A stretch of DNA of 64,000 nt, taken from contig NC_042998.1 of assembly GCF_006345805.1 (NCBI RefSeq), positions 139,934,001 to 139,998,000 of the forward strand, in the 5' to 3' direction. The translations under genes were made by a program, and so were the position numbers. This DNA comes from Octopus sinensis (taxonomy: Eukaryota). The notes below the pieces were generated by a model. It saw only the letters and a list, made by a program, of their open reading frames with translations, was not told the DNA's origin and made no database searches. Below are positions 2,208 to 56,480 of this stretch, piece after piece (within the stretch, counting starts at the first letter, position 1; the number at the start of each line of letters is the position of its first letter).

Positions 2208-5200
2208 TATATGCTGTCAATATTCACTTCTAAGCCTTTATGTTTTTCATTTACAGTCCATCCAAATTTGACTTTTATCTTTCATCGTTCCTGAGACAAT
2301 AAAATAAGTTCAGGAGTTGATTGAAGTATCCTCTCTTCATATTTGTAGCCATTTGCCAGTATGAGAAATAACCATCGTTATTATTATAACTTACATTATT
2401 TAATTGTTTAGTTTGTATTTGTTGTATGCCCCCGCTAAGCTCTGTGTTCTGTGGATGCATAAAGGTTTAACTCACACTTTATTATTATTATCTGCACCTT
2501 TTGTTTCTGTGAACATGTTCCTTTATATACACAAACAAACACACACACACGCACAAAAAAAAAATAATAATCAGAGAAATGGTACCAAATCAGAGTAAAA
2601 CACAGCAGCAAAGTCAGCATTATTAACATTTAATTCGAGGTTCAGTCTTTGAAAACTATCATGAAACATGTGCTGTGATGTTAGTGAATTAATGTTTTCT
2701 TTGAGAACATAATTCGCTATTGTGTAACTTATGGCAAGTATCTTATCAGTCTGCAGGGATGAAAGAATGATTTAATATCTACTCGCTAAATATGGATGGT
2801 GACAGTGTGCCACAAATAAATATGACTTCGCCATTACATGGGAATTTGCCTGCAGTGCGGTTCGCTATAGAAGTGTACTTTTGTGTAGTTTATCAAAGAT
2901 GTTATGGTTTCCATAAACAAGTGAGCAGTGAATTCTTTCTTTAAGTGAGTGTTTTGTGAAAATATGGTTATTGATTTACCTATGTGGTGTTGTTATAGTT
3001 ATCATGATGCAAGCAGTGTCCTTTGGTTTCCAACCTTCCATGAAACCGTGTCTGGTTTAAGGGGAAATGTTATGTTGCTTGGAAAGAGGTGAGGGTTGTA
3101 ACAGGAAGAGCATCTGGCCTTTAAAAATCCATCTCAAAAATTCTATCCAACCCGTTGTGAGCATGGAAGAATAAATGTTAAAATGATGATGGTAAAGAAG
3201 AAGAAGAAGAAGCAAGGATCTCTGAAGATATTACATAGTTCACTGTGAATAGTTTATCGAAAGCATTATGGCATCCATCAACATGTTTACAGAGCAGTGA
3301 ATTCTTTCTTTGGAAAATATAGATATTCCTTGATTCACCTACATAGTATTGTATAATAAATATAAGGATGTTATATAATATTCCTGCCTAATAATCACAC
3401 AGCAAACACAAGGATATCTGAAAATATTACATATTTGTAAAATCTATATCAACTGAATTTTTTATCAAAATCTGAGACATTAACTTACTAGCAAACCAGT
3501 CATGAAGCCAACTGTGTGTCTATTATTTATTACCTATGTATGGTAATTTTCTGAAACCTATTTTAGAAAATATATACTTTCTTTGTTATGTACTTAGAGA
3601 AGGTAGCTGTGACAGGGAATGTATTCATAATTTCTTAAGCATCTTTTGACCACTGACTGGAGAAATCAGTGTAGTCAATGATCACTGAAATTCTGTTGGT
3701 CAAGACATGTAGGAAAAACACGAGCAACATCATCATCATTTTATGATATATCTTTTCTCTTTTATCGTTTCAGTCATTAGACTACAGCCATACTCAGGTA
3801 CCGCATTGAAGGGTTTAATCAAACAAATCAACCCTAGTACTTATGTTTTAAAGTCTTCTACTTACACTATGGGTCTCTATTTGCTGAACTGTGAGTTATG
3901 AGGGACATGAACAAATCCACTCTGGTACGCTGGTTGTCAAGCAAGGCCATAATCAAAAGGACATACAGACATATACATACAAACATACATACATACAAAC
4001 AAACAAACAAACAACAAAATTGTATATAGAGTTATCCAAGGTTTCGTACCTACAAAGCCTAAGTCATGTGGACTGTTCATCAGACTCTATATAGAGTCTG
4101 ATGAGCTGTCCACAAGGCTTTGGCTTTGTGGGTGCAAAACCTTGGATAACGCTACATAAAATTTTGTTGTAATAATTACTGCTCTGTTTTCTACAGTGTG
4201 CTTCATTCTGATATATGTTTTTTTTTATTAAATATATATATATATATATATGCATACATGCATGTATGTTTCTTTCAGTTTCTGTCTACCAAAGCCACTC
4301 AAAAGGCTTTGGTTGGCTGGTGGGTAATAGTAGAAGCCACCTTTTCTGTGTGCCATGCAGTAGGACTGAACCTAGAACCATGTGGTTGAGAAGCAAACTT
4401 CTTACCACACAGTCATGAGTATTATTAGTTGCTACATTTGTTTCACCATTGCAGTTATTTGGAGCTCAACACTGGATGTTCCACTACACTAGAATCTGAC
4501 TGGATAATGCTAATCTATGTGGAGGTCTAACTCTTACAGTAACAGTCATACATCAAACTGTTTGCACACAATTATTTATATGTATTTTTAGACTGTGGCC
4601 ATGCTGGGGCACAGCCTTGAAGAACTTTTAGTCAAATGCATTGACCCCCAAGTACTTATTTTTTAAAACCTGATACTTATTCTGTTGGTCTCTTTTGCTG
4701 AACCACTAAGTTACAGGGACATAAACACAATGATACCAGTTGACAAGCGGTGGTGGGGGACAAACACGTGCACACAGACACACACACATGCACCCATGGA
4801 AACAATGGGCTTCTTTCAGTTTCCATCTACCAAATCCACTCAAGGCTTTGGTCAGTCAAGTAACTCACAGGTCAAAGAAAAGACCTGTAACTGACTAAGG
4901 TTGGAGTCAAGAAGTGGTGGTTTTATGCAAGGCATTGAGATACTAAAGTATAATAGAGGGATCAGGAAGTCATGTAGCCCTGTGGTTAGGTTGTTGGACT
5001 CATAAACTTAAGGTCATGGCTGGTAAACATGTTGTGTCCTTGGACAAGGCACTTAATTTCATGTTGTTCTAGTTTCCTCAGCTGTAAAGGAGTACTAGGT
5101 GAGTTCTAGTGCAGCTCTCTTGACCACCAGCTGTCAGTCGATGAAATCAACTATACTCCTTCCCCAAATTTCAGGCCTTGTGCCTATAGTCCATGTTTTT

Positions 5201-5686
5201 GCTGGGGCATTGAGGGCGAGGTCAAGAGGGTATCTGTGTCCACTCATTACTACACAATCACCTAAAACAATTAGTGAAAGCATGATACATGCAATTAGGT
5301 TATACTCATTTGCTTTATGCATGAGTGTGTGTGTGTGTGTGTGTGAGTGAGTGAGTGCATAAATTGCCTAAATATTTCATTTCCATATTTCTTTGTGCAG
5401 GCATGACTGTATAGGTAGGAAGTTCACTTCCCAACCACATAGTACTGGGTTCAGTCCCACTGCTCAGCACCTCAGGCAAGTGACTTCTACTAGAGCCTCA
5501 GGCCAACCAAAGCCTTAAGAGTGAATTTGGTGGACAGAAATTTCTTCATGTGTATATTTGTGTGTGAAAGTGCTTGTGTCTCCTTTGAGTTCCAATTATG
5601 GTTAAAATATTTTTGTTTTTGTATAAAATAATTTCCGCTCATATATTTCTTCCTTTTTTTTTTTCTCTCTCTCTCTCTGTAATCAG

Positions 5687-18443: not shown

Positions 18444-19844
18444 CATACAATGGATTCCTTTCACTTTCTGTCTACTAAATCCACTCACAAGGCTTCAGTT
18501 AGCCCGAGGCTATAATAGAAGACACTTGCCCAAGGTGCTGCACACAGTGGGGCTGAACCCAGAACTATGTGGTTGGCAAGCAAACTTCTTAACTACACAG
18601 CCATTCCTGTGCCTATGTGTATATATAAAAATGGAACAAAAATGCAATAGAGGACAATAAAACATTCAGACGGATAGATGAGACAATGGTGGACCAGAGA
18701 AACAACAATTAGAAGGACAGGCAAAAAAAGACAGGTCATTTGTGGCCTTCTTTCCTCAGTCAAGTACCAGAAGTCATGACCATTTTGGGCTGTTACGCTT
18801 AAGATGGTTTGATCTAGTTGCCCCCCAAAAAGTCTAAGCTAAGAGCATTAGACCCCTTTATAAGAAAGCTAGCGAATGTGTACAGCAACAAAGACAAAAA
18901 ATGGAGAACATGGTACACAAAAAGACAAAACACAGAAAACATGGTAGACAATTGCAAATACAAGCAACAAGAAAAAAATCAACTGGTGTCTTTCAACTGA
19001 GAACGAATCCAATTGAGCTGGTGTGTATGAAGTAAAAGCCTAAGGGCAGGAACATAGGAGATGGACATAAGAGGTTTTTGGCAGTCGGCAGTCAGGCCAA
19101 GAAAGAAAGATCATGGCTGGCAGGACACCTGTCACCTGAAAGGAGGAGAGATGGGTGGGGGGCAGCAGGATTGAAGGATTAGAAAACAGTCAGAGACAAA
19201 GAGAAAGGTACAAATTGAAGACTGTCAGCATTTTTGAAGAAGACTGGTCCCTAGCTACATTTTGGCATAAAAAAATTGAGATTTGATCCAGTAGAAAAAA
19301 AAAGTTTATATCAAAATTTGTTGGAACATTATAGGAGAGTAACGCCACCAATCAAGTTTAGATCTAAATAACTTTTTTTATTTCAAAAGCAAAATATATT
19401 TATCTGAGCTTCAGTAATAGAAAAAAGCATGAATAATTTCATAATTTTGTTTCCATGCAACAAAAATTTGTATCAAAAGTGTTGTGAGGTAAAATATCAT
19501 GAAAAAATATATGTAAGGCAAAAAATTGGATTTAAGTATAATTAACTTTTTATTTTAAAAATAAACTATATTTTAATTAAGCTTAAATGATAGAGCTTAA
19601 TTCAAGGAATTTCATAATATCAATCTCATGCAAGGAAGTTTTAAAAGAAAAAGTTATGAGTGTTTGTTTCTCAAATTTGAGGGTGATAATATAGTTCTAT
19701 ACTTTTTTTACGAATATAGTTCTATAAGGGGACTTTTAATATCTGTCACAGGCATCATTGAGGTCAGGAAAAATAATCAATGACTCTGCTATTTGACACA
19801 TTATTAAATAGCATAACAGCATATCCTGGAAAAAACATGAATTA

Positions 19845-21040
19845 CATGGGAAAATGTGAGCAAGAGAAATAATATTCTTAAGATCATGAACCTGGAAAAT
19901 TACAGGATAAGTTATTACACTTGGAAAAGTTCAGGACAACTTATTACATCTGGTAAAGTACAGAACAAGAAAATTTTTACTTAAAATATTGCAGCTAAGG
20001 ATAAAATTTGAATATTAAAAATTACTTGATTTTAATTTACAAAGTAACATTATAATTAAAAAAGGTACCAACATTTTGTTAAAATATTAACACACTAAAA
20101 TACTTTAAAAAAAATGAGGGCCAGAAGTACCAATATAGCTGAAGTTTTATGCAAAGTAGAATAGTATATATGGTAGGCAAATTCATTATGTAAAAAATAG
20201 GCATTAGGTAATGATTAAAAATGTGAAGACTTGTTAATAACTCAAACAAATTTTACTGTGAATTTGTTGTTATAGGTAGATTTTATTGCAATATATAACT
20301 AATTTTGTATTATTCTATTCATTGTCTAACTAATTATGTACTACTATTATTTTTTATAACCTATTTTCAAATTTTTAATTATCAATTAATAATTTAAAAG
20401 ATGATTTTTTTAAAGTGCAAAAAATATTTTGAGTTATTTTATATTTTTAATAGAAGTAACAAGTAATAACGTGGAAGCACATGGCCTAGTGGTTAGAGCA
20501 GCGGACTCGCGGTCGAGGGATTGCAGGTTCGGATCGCAGACTGGGTGATGTGCGTGTTTATGAGTGAAACACCTAAGCTCCACATGGCTCCAGCAGAAGG
20601 TAATGGCAAACTTCTGCTGACTCTTTCGCCACAACTTTCTCTCACTCTTTTTTCCTGCATCTAGCAGCTCACCTGCAATGGACTGGCGTCCTGTCCAAGT
20701 GGGGAACCTATACGCCAATGAAACCAGGAAATCAGCCCTTATGAGCCAGGTATGGCCCAAGAAAGAACAAACAACAAGTGATAACAAATAGCAGTAATAA
20801 CTTGTAATAAAATTTTTTCTTTTAATAAAAGCTAATATTTTCTAAATCTAAGATTTAATATTCTAAATCTATTTGAAAATTTATCCTTAGCTGCAATATT
20901 TTCGGTAAAAATTTTCTTGTTCTGTACTTTACCAGATGTAATAAGTTGTCCTGAACTTTTCCAAGTGTAATAACTTATTCTGTAATTTTCCAGGTTTATA
21001 ATCTTAAGAATATTATTTCTCTTTCTTGCATTTTTCCATG
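19845..21040. mobile_element. MITE-like element with ~165-bp TIRs and TA target, carrying a nested SINE
   Basis: catgggaaaatg...gcagctaaggataaa (19845-20005) is the near-exact reverse complement of tttatccttagctgc...ttttccatg (20880-21040); TA at both flanks. Confidence 0.85.
20471..20772 (+). mobile_element. tRNA-derived SINE, family C, with target-site duplication
   Basis: Head tggcctagtggttagagcagcggactcgcggtcgagggattgcaggttcggatc (A and B boxes); (aac)n-like tail; flanked by aacaagtaataac / aacaagtgataac. Confidence 0.82.
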
Positions 21041-21074
21041 TATATATTTATGTACGTGTGCATGTGTGTGTATG

Positions 21075-22652: not shown

Positions 22653-22864
22653 CAGGGTGGCCCAAAAGTAGGTTTACAGTTATCTAACTTTCTCTTTCAC
22701 ATTCGTATATTAATAGTTTAGATCTTAGTTATAAAAATATATGAAACCATTATTCTACACTAATTTAGTTAATTGTAAGATTGAAATTTAAATGTAATAA
22801 AATGTTTTAAAAGAAATTTAAAGTGTCTACATGATAACTGTAAACCTACTTTTGGACCACTGTG
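22653..22864. mobile_element. Tc1/mariner-type MITE (~210 bp)
   Basis: TIR cagggtggcccaaaagtaggtttacagttatc pairs with gataactgtaaacctacttttggaccactgtg; TA at the 5' end. Confidence 0.82.
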
Positions 22865-22912
22865 TGTGTGTGTATATGTATGTATATATGTGTATGTGTG
22901 TGTATATATATA

Positions 22913-25030
22913 TTTAAAAAAGGAGATGTGGAACACGAGTTGTGATATATAAAAAAAAAGGAAATGAAGAAAATGCTGACAAAATAATTTAAGTAAGGGA
23001 GAGTGTATTTAATTAGGTGAAAGTTCTTTTTACCGGTTGCGCATTTGTTATGCTTATCAAAAGATATTTTTTAAAGAGAGATAGAGTTCCTTTCTGATAG
23101 ATTTTTTTCTCTTATCTGACTTTATGTTGGGTTTGCTGTCTCTTATATGTGAAAAAAGAGGCTCCAGAGTTTTTTAAGATTTGCTTGGTTTCGCGCCTAA
23201 AATTTCTTGTGGACAATGGTCAATACAATTTTGATTGGTCATTATAAAGGGGTCACGTGAATGTTTGAATGGAGGTTGGTGTTGGGGTAAGAAAATAGGC
23301 TCCAGAGATGTTAAAATTTGGCTAGTGCCGCGCCTAAAATTTCTTATTGGTCATAATAAAGAGGTCACGTGGATGTGGTCATAATAGAGAGGTCACATGA
23401 ATGTTTAGAATGAATGTTGGTGTATGGAGTTTTCGAAAATAGCGTTGTTGAAAATTCTTATTGTTCAGGCTGGTCAGTAGACGTCATGTGGATATTTTAA
23501 ATAGCTTTTTAGCGCGTAGTTAAGGAGTGTATTTTCTGCTTGACTGAATTTGAGCTGGATAAGTAAGTTCATTTAGGACAGGAAGAGCTATATGTATGTA
23601 TGTGTGCGCGTGCACACGTGTGTGTGTGTGTGTGTGTGTGTTTATATGTATGTTGGGGCGCGTGCGTGTATATATGTGTGCGTGTGTGGGTACAATTTTC
23701 AATATTTATAGTTCTGCTGGCCTTGTGCCTGTATTGGGAAGCAACGTGTTTGTGTGAAGTCAATATTTACAGTCATTTCCAAAAAGTAGTGTTGGATGTT
23801 TTGCACCCGTATCAAATTATGTGTATGTGTGGAACCATATATTTGCGTGTGTCATGGTGTTAATATCTGGGTAAAAGTGTGTGTAGGGTGTGTGCAGGTG
23901 TAAGTGTGTTTGTTGTGGGTTCGTGTTAGGGGGATGTGTTTAGAAGTGGTCTGTATTTATTAATAAGGTGGGATTCCATGGTTATTCGCTGGGTATGAGT
24001 GGCATTGTCTTTAAATTTGTAGAGGGGAAAGATTCTAAAATTGGGATGAAGTTGTGCGGCACAGGTATCAATATGTGCACTAAGTGCTATTTTTCTGTAT
24101 TCCTGTATTTTTATTTGGGATCTGTGGACAGTCATGCGTTGGCGGAGGCTATTTTTAGTTTGGCCTATGTAGTGTTCATTACAGCCCGAGCAAGTTAAGA
24201 CATATACTAGGTTTTCTGATGCGCATGTGAAGTTGTGTTTTACTGTGAAACGTTGTCCTTGTTTAAAAAGAAATTCTGGGCCTTCTATTAGGTTGATGCA
24301 TATACCACAGTTGGGTCTATTGCATTTGTTTACTGTGGGTTTAGTTGTTGTGGTTGGCAGTACTTTGGCATTTGTTAGGATGGTTTTCAATGATTTGGGT
24401 TGCCTTTTGCTCTTTATGATTTCGTGTGTTAGGAGGATTTGGTTCATTCTATGGTCCTTTTTTAATACAGGAATGTTTTGGAGGATGGTGTCAAAAGCTT
24501 CATTGTTGAGGGGGTTGTGTGTAGAGATGTATGGTAGAGTATGGGGTTTCGATGTAACAGGTTTAGGGCGTCTAAGTTCCTGTGTGCTGAGTTTTAGGGC
24601 GCGTTGGATCCCATTGTCAATTAGTGACGTGGGGTAATCCCTGCTTGTTAATGTGTCCTTAAGTTCTTGTAGACGTAAGAGACGGGTGTTTTTATTGGAG
24701 ACTATAGTGCAAATGCTCTTGGCTAGGTTGTAGGGAATGTTAATTTTAACGTGTCTAGGGTGGCATGAATTGAAAGGGAGGTATTGCTTGGAGTCTGTGG
24801 GCTTGTAGTATATGTCTGTTTCTATTTTTTTGTTGTGAATTTTAATGAGGTTGTCGAGGAAGGGAATTTGAGGGCTGTATTCCATTGTGAAAATAATGTT
24901 TGTGTTGAGCCCATTTATAAGGGTGTGAAATTCTTTAAGCTTCTCGACGGTTTCGGGCCAAAGGATGAAGCAGTCATCAAGATATCTCTTCCAGTTCTTC
25001 TCTATGTGTGTGTGGAGAGTGGTGCCAAAT
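22913..25030 (-). mobile_element. Penelope-like element (Neptune-type), left arm, 5'-truncated
   Basis: RT C-terminal half + GIY-YIG frame, followed by ~1 kb 3' UTR/pLTR ending in a TA tract. Confidence 0.9.
23926..25029 (-). CDS. Penelope-like RT (partial) + CxxxxCxxC linker + GIY-YIG endonuclease, stop-free
   Basis: The frame extends 48 codons upstream of the listed Met and contains WKRYLDDCF (YLDD at 24973-24984); also IPFLD, DIYYKPTDS, SCHP, CNRPNCGIC, LVYVLTCSGCNEHYIGQT, ESHLINKYRPLLN. Confidence 0.88.
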   Translation of the reverse strand, partial: FGTTLHTHIEKNWKRYLDDCFILWPETVEKLKEFHTLINGLNTNIIFTMEYSPQIPFLDNLIKIHNKKIETDIYYKPTDSKQYLPFNSCHPRHVKINIPYNLAKSICTIVSNKNTRLLRLQELKDTLTSRDYPTSLIDNGIQRALKLSTQELRRPKPVTSKPHTLPYISTHNPLNNEAFDTILQNIPVLKKDHRMNQILLTHEIIKSKRQPKSLKTILTNAKVLPTTTTKPTVNKCNRPNCGICINLIEGPEFLFKQGQRFTVKHNFTCASENLVYVLTCSGCNEHYIGQTKNSLRQRMTVHRSQIKIQEYRKIALSAHIDTCAAQLHPNFRIFPLYKFKDNATHTQRITMESHLINKYRPLLNTSP

Positions 25031-26364
25031 TATTTTCACAATGGAATACAGCCCTCAACAAATTTGCACTATAGTCTCCAATAAAAACACCCGTCTCTTA
25101 CGTCTACAAGAACTTAAGGACACATTAACAAGCAGGGATTACCCCACGTCACTAATTGACAATGGGATCCAACGCGCCCTAAAACTCAGCACACAGGAAC
25201 TTAGACGCCCTAAACCTGTTACATCGAAACCCCATACTCTACCATACATCTCTACACACAACCCCCTCAACAATGAAGCTTTTGACACCATCCTCCAGAA
25301 CATTCCTGTATTAAAAAAGGACCATAGAATGAACCAAATCCTCCTAACACACGAAATCATAAAGAGCAAAAGGCAACCCAAATCATTGAAAACCATCCTA
25401 ACAAATGCCAAAGTACTGCCAACCACAACAACTAAACCCACAGTAAACAAATGCAATAGACCCAACTGTGGTATATGCATCAACCTAATAGAAGGTCCAG
25501 AATTTCTTTTTAAACAAGGACAACGTTTCACAGTAAAACACAACTTCACATGCGCATCAGAAAACCTAGTATATGTCTTAACTTGCTCGGGCTGTAATGA
25601 ACACTACATAGGCCAAACTAAAAATAGCCTCCGCCAACGCATGACTGTCCACAGATCCCAAATAAAAATACAGGAATACAGAAAAATAGCACTTAGTGCA
25701 CATATTGATACCTGTGCCGCACAACTTCATCCCAATTTCAGAATCTTTCCCCCTCTACAAATTTAAAGACAATGCCACTCATACCCAGCGAATAACCATG
25801 GAATCCCACCTTATTAATAAATACAGACCACTTCTAAACACATCCCCCTAACACGAACCCACAACAAACACACTTACACCTGCACACACCCTACACACAC
25901 TTTTACCCAGATATTAACACCATGACACACGCAAATATATGGTTCCACACATACACATAATTTGATACGAGTGCAAAACATCCAACACTACTTTTTGGAA
26001 ATGACTGTAAATATTGACTTCACACAAACACGTTGCTTCCCAATACAGGCACAAGGCCAGCAGAACTATAAATATTGAAAATTGTACCCACACACGCACA
26101 CATATATACACGCGCGCGCCCCAACATACATATAAACACACACACACACGTGCGCGCGCACACATACATACATATAGCTCTTCCTGTCCTAAATGAACTT
26201 ACTTATCCAGCTCAAATTCAGTCAAGCGGAAAATACACTCCTTAACTACGCGCTAAAAAGCTATTTAAAATATCCACATGACGTCTACTGACCAGCCTGA
26301 ACAATAAGAATTTTCAACAACGCTATTTTCGAAAACTCCATACACCAACATTCATTCTAAACAT

Positions 26365-26625
26365 TCATGTGACCTCTCTATTATGACCACATCCACGTGA
26401 CCTCTTTATTATGACCAATAAGAAATTTTAGGCGCGGCACTAGCCAAATTTTAACATCTCTGGAGCCTATTTTCTTACCCCAACACCAACCTCCATTCAA
26501 ACATTCACGTGACCCCTTTATAATGACCAATCAAAATTGTATTGACCATTGTCCACAAGAAATTTTAGGCGCGAAACCAAGCAAATCTTAAAAAACTCTG
26601 GAGCCTCTTTTTTCACATATAAGAG
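26365..26625 (+). promoter_or_regulatory. Putative pLTR promoter motif cluster (mirrored at ~23140-23400 on the minus strand)
   Basis: CACGTG at 26394 and 26506; CCAAT at 26415 and 26527; GGCGCGAAA (reverse complement TTTCGCGCC, E2F-like) at 26568; TATAAG at 26618. Confidence 0.45.
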
Positions 26626-26699
26626 ACAGCAAACCCAACATAAAGTCAGATAAGAGAAAAAAATCTATCAGAAAGGAACTCTATCTCTCTTTAAAAAAT

Positions 26700-26740
26700 A
26701 TCTTTTGATAAGCATAACAAATGCGCAACCGGTAAAAAGA
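26700..26740 (+). ncRNA. Variant minimal hammerhead-like motif in the PLE 3' end (mirror copy 23025-23064, minus)
   Basis: tctt-TTGATAA-gcat(aacaa)atgc-GCAA-ccgg-TA-aaaaga: U3-A8 compensatory pair, 4-bp stem II, palindromic ACCGGT stem III. GCAA replaces GAAA and the stem I register is imperfect. Confidence 0.55.
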
Positions 26741-26804
26741 ACTTTCACCTAATTAAATACACTCTCCCTTACTTAAATTATTTTGTCAGCATTTTCTTCA
26801 TTTC

Positions 26805-26840
<36 letters not shown>

Positions 26841-26842
<2 letters not shown>

Positions 26843-27050
26843 ATCCAAACATGAGAACACCAAGAGAAAACACAACGCGAGAACGTGGAACAAATATAGT
26901 ATTATTGGATGCTCAGGAAGGAAGGGAAGAAGGAGGGTTTTACGTTTCGAGCGGAGTTTTCGTTAGAGACATAGGAAAAGGAAAGATCCAGAGAAGGGAA
27001 GATGGAGGAAAAAAAGAATCGCCAACGGTACACATGCGGTCACATTTTAT
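26841..27050 (-). mobile_element. Short PLE pLTR-like remnant with a degenerate hammerhead
   Basis: Minus strand 26970-26937: gtct-CTAACGA-aaactccgctc-GAAA-cg-TA-aaac; abuts (TA)n. Confidence 0.45.
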
Positions 27051-49732: not shown

Positions 49733-50122
49733 TTGTGTTGTTGGAACTCCGTCAGTTACGACAACGAGTGTTCCAATTGATCTGATCAACAGAACAGCCT
49801 GTTCGTGAAATTAACATGCAAGTAGCTGAGCACACCACAGACATGTATACCCTTAACGTAGTTCTCAGGGAGATTCAGCATGACACAGGGTGTGAGAAGG
49901 CTGGCCCTTTGAAATACAGGTACAACAGAAACAGGAAGAAAGAGTGATAGAAAGTTGTGGTGAAAGAGTACAGCAGGGTTCATCACCACCTCCTGCTAGA
50001 GCCTCATAGAGCTTTAGGTGTTTTCACTCAATAAACACTCACGACGCCCGGTCTGGGAATCGAAACTGTGATCCTAAGACCGCGAGTCCGCTACCCTAAC
50101 CACTGGGCCATTGCGTCTCCAC
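49733..50122 (-). mobile_element. SINE-C inserted in inverted orientation inside a related SINE (~49607-50305, +)
   Basis: Minus-strand head tggcccagtggttagggtagcggactcgcggtc...gtttcgattccc; its tail (49742-49920) is complementary to the host tail (50125-50302). Confidence 0.75.
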
Positions 50123-50608
50123 AATGTATTTCAAATGGCCAGCCTTGTTACATTCTGTGTCATGTTGAATCTTCCTGGGAATTACATTAAGAATATGCCT
50201 GTCTGTGGAGTACTCAGCCACTTACATGTTAATTTAATTAGCTGGCCATTCTGTTGATCAAATCAACTGGAACCCTTGTTGTTGTGACCAATGAAGTACC
50301 AGTTAGTTGTAGGATTCATAGGGCCAGTTACCTGCTTTTCCATGACTGAGATGACAACATTGGTCCTGAATAGGGTACCGGTCCATTGCAGGAGTACTTA
50401 TATTTACAGCTGAGTGGAATGCAGCAATGTGAAATGAAGTTTTGTGCTCAAGAACACAATGCATCGCCTGGTTCAGGAACTGAAATCATGATGTTTGTAA
50501 TTGTGAGCATAACACCCTAACCACTAGGCCACATGCCTTCACTGATCTACTTACCCCACCCCACCCCTCACTTTAAAATGGCTGACTTTGTACCAGAAAT
50601 AAGAAAGA

Positions 50609-54657: not shown

Positions 54658-54904
54658 GTAAGTTATTTTGCATTTTATTAAATGTTATGTTCATGATCAA
54701 GTCATTGTGTTGTTTCTTTCATTTCCAGTATCATTCATACTTTAGTAGTCCTCACTTGTCAATCAATAATTTTTAGCTAATTGTTCTTGAAATAAATATA
54801 GTATTTTAATAGTAAGTACAAACATATGTAAACATAAAGACAATGCATTTATAATTCAACAAGATAGAGAAATAATAAGGCAACTTTAACATTATATATA
54901 TATA

Positions 54905-55365
54905 CTATAAATAATATATAAATATATGCATATATACATACATATATGTACATACCTACATCTATATGTATATATACATGCATATATGGGTACAGGACAT
55001 AAAATAACGTTGAACACAATGAGAAACAAAAACATAAAAACAAAATCATGGAAACAAACTCTTTTTTCAAACAACGAAAAAGACAGAATACAAGACATAC
55101 AACAGAAGGAATATTCCCCCTTTTCAGTTGTCCCTATTTTGTCTACTCCACGTAACTGAAGAAGGGGAATATTCCTTGTGTTGTATGTCTTGTACTCTGT
55201 TTTTTCGTTGTTTGAAAAAGAAGTTCATTTCCATGTTTTCATTTCTCATTCTGTTCAACATTTTTTTTGATGTCCTGTACCCATATATGCATGTATATAT
55301 ACATATAAATGTAGGTATGTACATATATGTATGTATATATGCATATATTTATATATTATTTATAT
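54905..55365. repeat. ~220-bp-arm inverted repeat with a 24-nt spacer
   Basis: 54905-55129 pairs with 55154-55365; both outer ends run into TA-rich tracts. Confidence 0.88.
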
Positions 55366-55406
55366 TATTATATGATCGAACGGCATGCATATTGACCAAA
55401 TAAGTT

Positions 55407-55710: not shown

Positions 55711-56227
55711 CATACTTATCTCTTACTAGACTGAGTACTGTTTTGCTGATCCTATCAACAAGAAATAATATACTACTACTACTGATTTTTTCTCACTAAC
55801 TCCTCTAAATGTAAGAAGAATTTGTTCTGCCCCAGCCCTTTCCTAATGCCAACCACTTTATGGAGTGTATTAGGTACTTTGTTCATGGCACCAATGTCTT
55901 GCAAAATTAAGATCCTCTTCAATGGAGTGGGACTACAGTGAATAGGGGAGTGCTTTTATGCTAAGAGGTGAGAGGTTAAAGTATGAAAGAAAAGGCCTGA
56001 ACTGAACGGGTTTCTTACTGTAGATAAACTTCATGGTTACTCATATTACTAGGTGGAGTAACTGGGGTGAAACAAATGGAAAACAGGGCAAGTAACATAA
56101 AGAATGACCCTTCATCAGTTGTCAACTGTCTGTCAACTCCTCATTTCAAGCATTGAAAAACAATATGAGTCTTTGAAGACAGTTGCTCTCATAAGTACCA
56201 AAATAAAATTTGGGATTTATGAAGGGT

Positions 56228-56480
56228 AAAGAACAATACATAGGCCAAACAAAAAACAGTCTATGTAAAAGAATGGCTCTGCACAGATCCCAGATCAAAA
56301 TTCCCCAAAACAGAAAAATAGCATTCAGCTAACACATAGACATTTGCGCCAATAACAAAAATCCAAGCTTCAGAATTTTTCCCCTCTACCAATTCAGGGA
56401 AGATACAACCTGAAGCCAATGAATCAGTAAAGAGACTTTCTTTATTACAAAATACAGACCCCTTTTGAACGCGTCTACGA
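56228..56480 (+). pseudogene. Penelope-like GIY-YIG endonuclease remnant (related subfamily)
   Basis: KEQYIGQTKNSLCKRMALHRSQIKIPQNRKIAFS*HIDICANNKNPSFRIFPLYQFREDTT*...KYRPLLN aligns by eye to the C-terminus of the 23926-25029 protein. Confidence 0.85.

What the first reader, a model, noticed from the sequence alone, without database searches (positions are those of the whole stretch)
22913..26840. 3.9-kb Penelope palindrome: two 5'-truncated copies joined head-to-head, both 3' ends anchored in (TA)n
Seen: arms ~22946-24714 and 25062-26812 are near-exact reverse complements; the differences I found are a handful of transitions and small indels. A further 30-bp match pairs 24868-24897 with 25029-25058. 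The ~130-nt spacer is not foreign DNA: it continues the left copy's RT and includes the catalytic YLDD. Each arm has lesions the other lacks: the left reads PQI where the right reads PQQI, and the right has a 153-nt in-frame deletion at an ATT microhomology plus a +1 frameshift. Known: PLEs can form inverted partial copies, and Neptune-type PLEs associate with microsatellites. Inference: this is one insertion event in which reverse transcription was primed on both target strands at TA microhomology and the two cDNAs joined at their 5' ends.
Basis: partly seen in the sequence, partly recalled or inferred. Interest (0 to 1): 0.75.

Follow-up and report, generated by a model that had tools for sequence, protein, structure and literature searches.

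The report
Double-primed Penelope head-to-head insertion
This 3.9-kb mirror-image repeat is one insertion of a Penelope-type jumping gene, in a layout that is common in its family and already described, and the family's copies show that it was likely built by copying RNA from one source gene twice, once from each cut DNA strand.

Summary
The palindrome is real: the arms are 98.7% identical. It is two 5'-truncated copies of a young RT+GIY-YIG Penelope-like element, joined head-to-head at a 3-nt overlap. It is ordinary for its family: 60 of the first 100 listed 3' ends sit in 30 outward pairs. The layout is published (PMC3846280, PMC8557442).

This one-tail rule holds in 61 of 65 pairs. The tail is on the longer arm in 17 pairs and the shorter in 13, which argues against one arm being a fold-back copy of the other. 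The arms share variants found in no other sampled copy, and their differences are private: one source, not two.

Best reading (0.68): both target strands primed reverse transcription at two RNA sites ~40 nt apart, and end-joining fused the two cDNAs. TA pairing fits only the tail end. One RNA molecule versus two is unresolved. No long reads or empty site were obtained. The scan has noted this mechanism on other DNA.

The parts
22862..22913 (.). Left target microsatellite: mixed GT/TA repeat ending in about 5 TA units
   Evidence: sequence
22910..22955 (-). Penelope tail, on the left arm only. It is element sequence: in tandem copies it reads through into the ORF start. Its last 4 nt are shared with the TA repeat.
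22910..25031 (-). Left (longer) 5'-truncated copy, from RT motif region through thumb, linker, endonuclease, 3' region and tail
23926..25029 (-). Left ORF remnant, 367 aa: YLDD, C-x4-C-x2-C linker (CNRPNCGIC), GIY-YIG domain (Pfam PF01541, E 1.4e-6)
22910..23118 (-). Left pLTR-like terminal unit, from the site where short family copies begin to the tail end
24898..25028 (-). Central spacer: RT sequence of the left copy only, with the YLDD codons
25029..25031 (.). Inversion junction: 3-nt overlap (ATT) shared by the 5' ends of both copies, no target DNA between them
25029..25064 (+). 36-nt 5' piece of the right copy (keeps PQQI), followed by a 153-nt deletion whose junction occurs once in the genome
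25062..26810 (+). Main body of the right (shorter) copy, without tail, ending in a 4-T run; extra C near 25750
26647..26810 (+). Right pLTR-like terminal unit; 26647 matches the inferred RNA 5' end of short family copies
26701..26740 (+). Degenerate hammerhead-like motif (U3-A8 core, short stem II, palindromic CCGG, C in place of A13). Read by eye; no Rfam match; mirrored in the left arm.
26811..26840 (.). Right target microsatellite, (AT)15
   Evidence: sequence

Best explanation
This is a dead, head-to-head pair of 5'-truncated copies of one Penelope-like retrotransposon family, likely made in a single insertion in which both strands of a cut (TA)n target primed reverse transcription of RNA from one source copy. 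Shown: the anatomy, the one-sided tail, the shared source, and that the layout recurs across the family. Inferred steps: (1) the GIY-YIG endonuclease, probably acting as a dimer, opens both strands of the microsatellite; (2) one 3' end primes at the tail end of the RNA, with up to 4 nt of TA pairing, and the other primes about 40 nt further 5', inside the U run, with little or no pairing; (3) the two cDNAs stop independently, here after about 2.1 kb and 1.75 kb; (4) host end-joining fuses their ends, here with a jump of 153 nt at AATT, 36 copied bases and a 3-nt overlap; (5) second strands are filled in, and the arms then drift by point mutation. When priming occurs in the RNA's first terminal repeat, both cDNAs would run off the RNA 5' end, giving the common ~350-bp palindromes.
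For: Outward pairs: 30 among the first 100 of 1655 3'-end hits, against 2 inward and 0.5 close pairs expected at random; 9 outward pairs among 65 hits of another 27-mer. One tail in 61 of 65 pairs, p 2e-14 against a 50% rate. L098 has a tail by eye. In L052 and L087 the second 'tail' is a read-through into the next unit. Tail pattern 840 hits versus 1655 3'-end hits. Tail on the longer arm 17, on the shorter arm 13, equal 27, both unique 3, other 4, of 64 scored. Arm lengths are not significantly correlated among 29 long pairs (rho 0.31, p 0.10). Same source: this locus's arms differ by 0.40%, against 1.25% to the best of 21 other loci; 4 shared substitutions are absent from all other sampled copies; one of them occurs only in these two arms genome-wide. 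In 19 long pairs, 142 arm differences are private and 8 are family polymorphisms. Overlap of 2 nt or more at 8 of 15 clean junctions versus 14.8% expected, p 6e-4. In vitro, a Poseidon PLE cleaves and extends both strands, starts at two sites that bound the tail, and is predicted to be a dimer (PMC11167929).
Against: At this locus alone the tail is on the longer arm and the right arm lies within the left arm's span, so fold-back is not excluded by this locus. Shared private variants could come from gene conversion between arms after insertion. The partner arm is the strict nearest neighbour in only 13 of 19 long pairs and 7 of 39 short pairs. 18 of 33 scored junctions show inserts rather than overlap, some probably miscalled. 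About 40 of 100 3' ends are unpaired in the listing. No long read spans the locus and no empty site was seen. The in vitro element belongs to another clade and primes without homology.
Confidence: 0.68

Rival explanations
1. Fold-back or self-priming: one cDNA, or an antisense RNA as proposed in PMC3846280, folds back and is copied, and the hairpin is then opened into a palindrome.
For: Explains shared private variants directly. At this locus the right arm lies within the left arm's span and its first 36 nt match the left spacer region. Published proposal (PMC3846280 Discussion).
Against: Predicts that the tail sits on a fixed arm class. Observed 17 longer and 13 shorter. In those 13, each arm has sequence the other lacks (e.g. 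L058, 3.4 kb). The right arm here keeps CAA that the left lacks, though that loss may be later.
Confidence: 0.13
2. Both arms are first made with a tail, and the endonuclease trims one arm at the internal T-run/ATATAT site while resolving the intermediate (the reading of the tail in PMC8557442).
For: The internal site resembles the (TA)n target. The ragged T run at tail-less ends (3 to 5 T in 48 of 57) could be cutting and resection. Published suggestion.
Against: In vitro reverse transcription starts directly at both tail boundaries (PMC11167929). It needs a reason why exactly one arm is trimmed in nearly all pairs.
Confidence: 0.1
3. The palindrome was copied whole from a transcript of an older palindromic copy.
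For: Short palindromes recur with nearly the same centre.
Against: The deletion junction and the PQI variant each occur once in the genome. Long junctions are all different. Short ones differ in fine junction and carry different subfamily variants, shared by their own two arms.
Confidence: 0.04
4. Two independent insertions from different source copies, or a later inverted duplication.
For: The family targets (TA)n repeatedly (L130 shows two copies tail-to-tail in one repeat). L034 is an inverted duplication that includes its flank.
Against: No target DNA at the junction, shared locus-private variants, the one-tail rule, and different flanks on the two sides.
Confidence: 0.03
5. Assembly fold-back artefact.
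For: No listed contig or read spans the junction; a second run of the same sample shows no cover of the junction bin.
Against: The arms differ by 7 transitions, several at CpG, and by the tail. The flanks differ. The same rule holds at about 60 other loci. Run X1 covers the junction bin at depth 35.6 while family parts are in the thousands.
Confidence: 0.02

Closest known systems
Typical insertion structure of endonuclease-positive Penelope-like elements: an inverted 5'-truncated copy at the 5' end and a 30-40 bp tail at one end (PMC8557442 Fig. 2 legend and passages; Pen2a_Av in PMC3846280, passages and Discussion read)
   Same: Head-to-head inverted copy, tail at one end only, microhomology junctions and deletions, (TA)n target. 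L052 in this family has the full canonical layout.
   Different: Here both arms are long (1.75 and 2.1 kb) and reach into the ORF. No target-site duplication can be read inside (TA)n. The papers state the one-sided tail qualitatively; in the passages seen they give no counts by arm length or source.
PAc (Poseidon of Anolis carolinensis) in vitro (PMC11167929, parts 1-2 of 4 read, whole text searched for 4 terms)
   Same: Both strands cut and extended, AT-rich target, two initiation sites that bound the tail, predicted dimer.
   Different: PAc is of the Penelope/Poseidon clade, which lacks the CxxC linker. Its start sites lie in the ORF and need no homology. Here the tail lies 5' of the first ATG seen, and one site shares ATAT with the target. 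The paper does not discuss inverted insertions ('inverted' occurs once, for a reagent; 'palindrom' never).
L1 twin priming (recalled, not read here)
   Same: Both target strands prime on the RNA, and the cDNAs are joined by microhomology.
   Different: In L1 the second primer starts internally, giving a 5' inversion without duplicated 3' ends. Here both arms include the 3' end and differ only by the tail.

Membership tests
EN+ Penelope-like element (C-terminal endonuclease) | One ORF with RT followed by a GIY-YIG endonuclease | tested here: met
   Pfam GIY-YIG on the window's ORF; RVT_1 and GIY-YIG on family copy L024; YLDD in the window
EN+ Penelope-like element (C-terminal endonuclease) | [quoted passage not shown] | tested here: met
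   LVYVLTCSGCNEHYIG followed by two His, read by eye against the description
EN+ Penelope-like element (C-terminal endonuclease) | Partial tandems with pLTR, inverted 5'-truncated copy, optional 30-40 bp tail | tested here: met
   Read-through from tail into ORF start in L052, L068, L087; inverted pairs and tails
EN+ Penelope-like element (C-terminal endonuclease) | Type I hammerhead ribozyme in the pLTR | tested here: inconclusive
   Degenerate motif by eye at 26701-26740; no Rfam hammerhead hit to E 10; no folding signal (z -0.35)
Neptune clade | CX2-5CxxC linker between RT and endonuclease (shared with Nematis) | tested here: met
   CNRPNCGIC; definition in PMC8557442
Neptune clade | RT phylogeny with Neptune rather than Nematis or Hydra | not tested
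Naiad/Chlamys | Endonuclease N-terminal to RT | tested here: not met
   Endonuclease is C-terminal
MITE or other DNA fold-back element | Fixed terminal inverted repeats copied as a unit with a constant centre | tested here: not met
   Ends asymmetric and junctions differ between loci

The most novel reading that the evidence does not exclude
Double priming is the normal Penelope integration route. A dimer holding one RNA molecule places its two reverse transcriptases about 40 nt apart and copies the same RNA from both ends of a double-strand cut, so the tail is the footprint of the spacing between the two active sites, and single copies are events in which one cDNA was lost.
Probability: 0.35. 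Interest if true: 0.72.

Novelty: new member of a known kind. Interest (0 to 1): 0.42.

Why it matters
The locus itself is a dead, ordinary copy of a published layout. Its value lies in the family. How Penelope-like elements form inverted repeats is named as an open question in PMC8557442, and the proposal in PMC3846280 is antisense self-priming. Here the long arms let one test which arm bears the tail and whether the arms share a source. The result favours double priming and links the inverted copies to the two start sites seen in vitro. That gives a direct assay: remove one start site or the second cut, and palindromes should vanish. A practical point: the ~350-bp palindromes of this family can be mistaken for MITEs. 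I did not find this link in print in 7 searches, but three older Penelope papers that may hold a model were not available, and no supplements were read.

Tried and rejected
Empty-site test on the right flank: uninformative. The tool skipped the repeat at the boundary, and the flank is itself a very high-copy repeat. Raw-read run X22 laid nothing on the junction stretch, so it is no test. X5 and X18 show no cover of the junction bin, which proves nothing for contigs.

RNA-editing test for one RNA molecule, a lead from e1-10280452: no support here. Shared rare changes were 8 A>G versus 7 T>C (p 0.81); share of A>G, shared versus arm-specific, p 0.09; 61 loci.

Search for the source or sister copies: one shared variant occurs only in the two arms. 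Another occurs at 3 more loci; two of these (L136, L137) carry the family state at the other sites tested, and L133 gave no scored alignment.

Hammerhead cleavage as the RNA 5' end: rejected. Only 1 of 128 arm 5' ends is at that site, against 40 of 128 near the upstream site, a count raised by my choice of 20 short pairs.

Rfam scan: only chance hits. A sequence look-up in earlier findings returned nothing. No homologue search, fold or complex prediction was run.

Full report
Observation. The window holds an inverted repeat of 1772 aligned columns at 98.7% identity, 22945-24714 against 25062-26821. The global alignment shows 7 internal substitutions, all transitions, a 12-nt difference in a CA repeat and one extra C in the right arm. 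The left copy continues to 25031 through RT sequence with YLDD. The right copy starts at 25029 with 36 nt, skips 153 nt (51 codons) and resumes at 25062. The two copies overlap by ATT at 25029-25031. The ends are not symmetric: the left copy runs about 40 nt past the point where the right copy meets (TA)n.

Identity. The left ORF remnant has a Pfam GIY-YIG domain, and the longer family copy L024 has RVT_1 followed by GIY-YIG. The linker CNRPNCGIC fits the CX2-5CxxC motif that PMC8557442 gives for Neptune and Nematis (passages). No tree was built. The family is young and abundant in G000: 2070 candidates, 40 scored, 97-98% identical, and 1655 exact hits of a 3'-terminal 27-mer.

How common the layout is. 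Of the first 100 listed 3'-end hits, 60 form 30 minus-then-plus (3'-outward) pairs within 8 kb, against 2 inward pairs, 1 tandem pair and 0.5 expected at random. 22 of the 30 span 347 bp or less, and 3 exceed 3.5 kb, so this locus is at the long end. I fetched 100 larger stretches: the 54 other places, 6 chosen for suspected pairs, 20 short pairs, and 20 further places (5 pairs, 1 inward pair, 14 apparent singles). Three of the 14 singles proved to be pairs, and one has a tail-only mini arm. The sample is enriched for pairs but was not chosen by tail state.

The tail rule. The extra 40 nt is element sequence, since in L052, L068 and L087 it reads through into the ORF start. It is the Penelope 'tail' of PMC3846280 and PMC8557442. 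Among 65 outward pairs the script found it on exactly one arm in 61, on both in 2 and on neither in 2; two of the 65 are tandem duplicates. L098 has a variant tail by eye. In L052 and L087 the second 'tail' is an internal read-through. L034 duplicates its flank and is a different event. Genome-wide the tail pattern has 840 hits against 1655 3' ends, and among its first 100 listed hits the only outward pair within 8 kb is L087. Of 41 unpaired ends, 16 have the tail.

Which arm has the tail. Of 64 scored pairs (L103 failed), the tail arm is longer in 17, the tail-less arm in 13, they are equal in 27, both have unique sequence in 3, and 4 are other (17 against 13, p 0.58). A few of the 13 (L089, L125, L129) are poorly covered by the reference. 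A fold-back copy cannot hold a tail its template lacks, nor 5' sequence beyond it, so simple fold-back predicts one class only. This window's locus is in the tail-longer class and does not decide the point alone.

Source of the arms. The arms differ by 0.40%, against 1.25% for the best and 2.28% for the median of 21 other loci. They share 4 substitutions seen in no other sampled copy, and one checked genome-wide occurs only in these two arms. At the 6 differing sites outside the microsatellite, one arm has the family base and the other a private or rare base: left derived at 4, right at 2. The PQI variant and the deletion junction each occur once in the genome. Over 19 pairs with 400 or more shared columns, 142 differences are private, 8 are family polymorphisms, and 15 pairs share private variants. 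The partner is the strict nearest neighbour in 13 of 19 long and 7 of 39 short pairs. One source is the simplest reading; gene conversion between arms could mimic part of it. A test for shared RNA-editing marks gave nothing, so one RNA molecule versus two is open.

Priming. At the tail end the template reads T6-AAATAT-CATATC, and 57 of 77 tail ends keep T(n)-AAATAT before the TA repeat, so up to 4 nt of pairing is possible. At the tail-less end the template reads T6-7-ATATATCAC, yet the T run is 3-5 in 48 of 57 arms and shorter than in the partner in 50 of 57 (p 1e-9). Synthesis therefore mostly begins inside the U run, not at the ATATAT match. Homopolymer errors would not be expected to act on one arm class only.

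Junctions. Of 33 scored junctions, 15 are flush or overlap, and 8 of these overlap by 2-7 nt, against 14.8% expected. The other 18 carry inserts, several copied from nearby element sequence and some probably miscalled. L035, L049 and L071 have, like this locus, a short 5' piece and a jump beside the junction. This looks like microhomology-mediated end-joining (inference). Short palindromes pile up at one 5' site, matching window 26647, in several subfamilies and with different fine junctions. This suggests run-off at the RNA 5' end after priming in the first terminal repeat (inference; no RNA data).

Artefact check. In run X1, assembled contigs cover the junction bin 25040-25052 at depth 35.6, while family parts are in the thousands; X5 and X18 give 0 there, and no listed piece spans the stretch. 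X1 may be the sample the assembly came from, so this is weak support. The arm-specific transitions, the different flanks and the family-wide rule are stronger arguments. The empty site could not be tested.

Comparison with the literature. PMC8557442 (passages) describes the inverted 5'-truncated copy and one-sided tail, ascribes the tail to endonuclease resolution, and lists the origin of inverted structures as open. PMC3846280 (passages and Discussion) proposes antisense self-priming. PMC11167929 (parts 1-2 of 4; term search) shows both-strand cleavage and extension and two start sites bounding the tail, without treating inverted copies. PMC4209133 (passages) reports the U3-A8 hammerhead variant and opposite-strand motif pairs 100-700 bp apart. 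PMC9977147 and PMC13282606, passages only, add nothing on palindromes; bioRxiv 10.64898/2026.07.22.740005 (part 1 of 5) was not relevant. Earlier notes of this scan reach the same double-priming reading on other DNA. I had formed my reading before seeing them, and they are not counted as support.

Verdict. A real and ordinary Penelope-like insertion of a known layout. The family data favour double target priming from one source (0.68). Interest 0.42.

Noticed in passing
L091-L111, L121, L126 (G000 C1): Many ~250-380 bp palindromes made of two terminal repeats of this family, both arms starting at nearly the same site; they look like MITEs but have one tail and locus-specific junctions.
   Followed up: yes
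window 26701-26740 (+) and its mirror in the left arm: Degenerate hammerhead-like motif with U3-A8 and C at position 13; activity untested, no Rfam match.
   Followed up: partly
L034: Two tail-less ends with the same flank on both sides: an inverted duplication that includes host DNA, or a misassembly.
   Followed up: partly
L039 and L110: A whole short palindrome repeated twice in tandem, sharing a (TA)n spacer.
   Followed up: no
L130, about 5030-5300: Two tailed 3' ends facing each other in one (TA)n repeat, probably two insertions into the same microsatellite.
   Followed up: no
L069 and L060: Inverted internal ORF piece joined to a non-overlapping piece in the other orientation, like an L1-type 5' inversion.
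   Followed up: no
window 23154-23442 (mirror 26323-26611): About 140-bp tandem duplication, 74% identical, in the element's 3' region.
   Followed up: no
window 56226-56470: A 70%-identical relative of the endonuclease region, from an older or different Penelope-like family.
   Followed up: no
window 54896-55373, 19843-21042, 49742-50301: Other inverted repeats (82% over ~480 bp; 94% over 170 bp; 80% over 177 bp), not examined.
   Followed up: no
window 26850-27050: The right flank is a repeat of very high copy number in all four runs laid.
   Followed up: no
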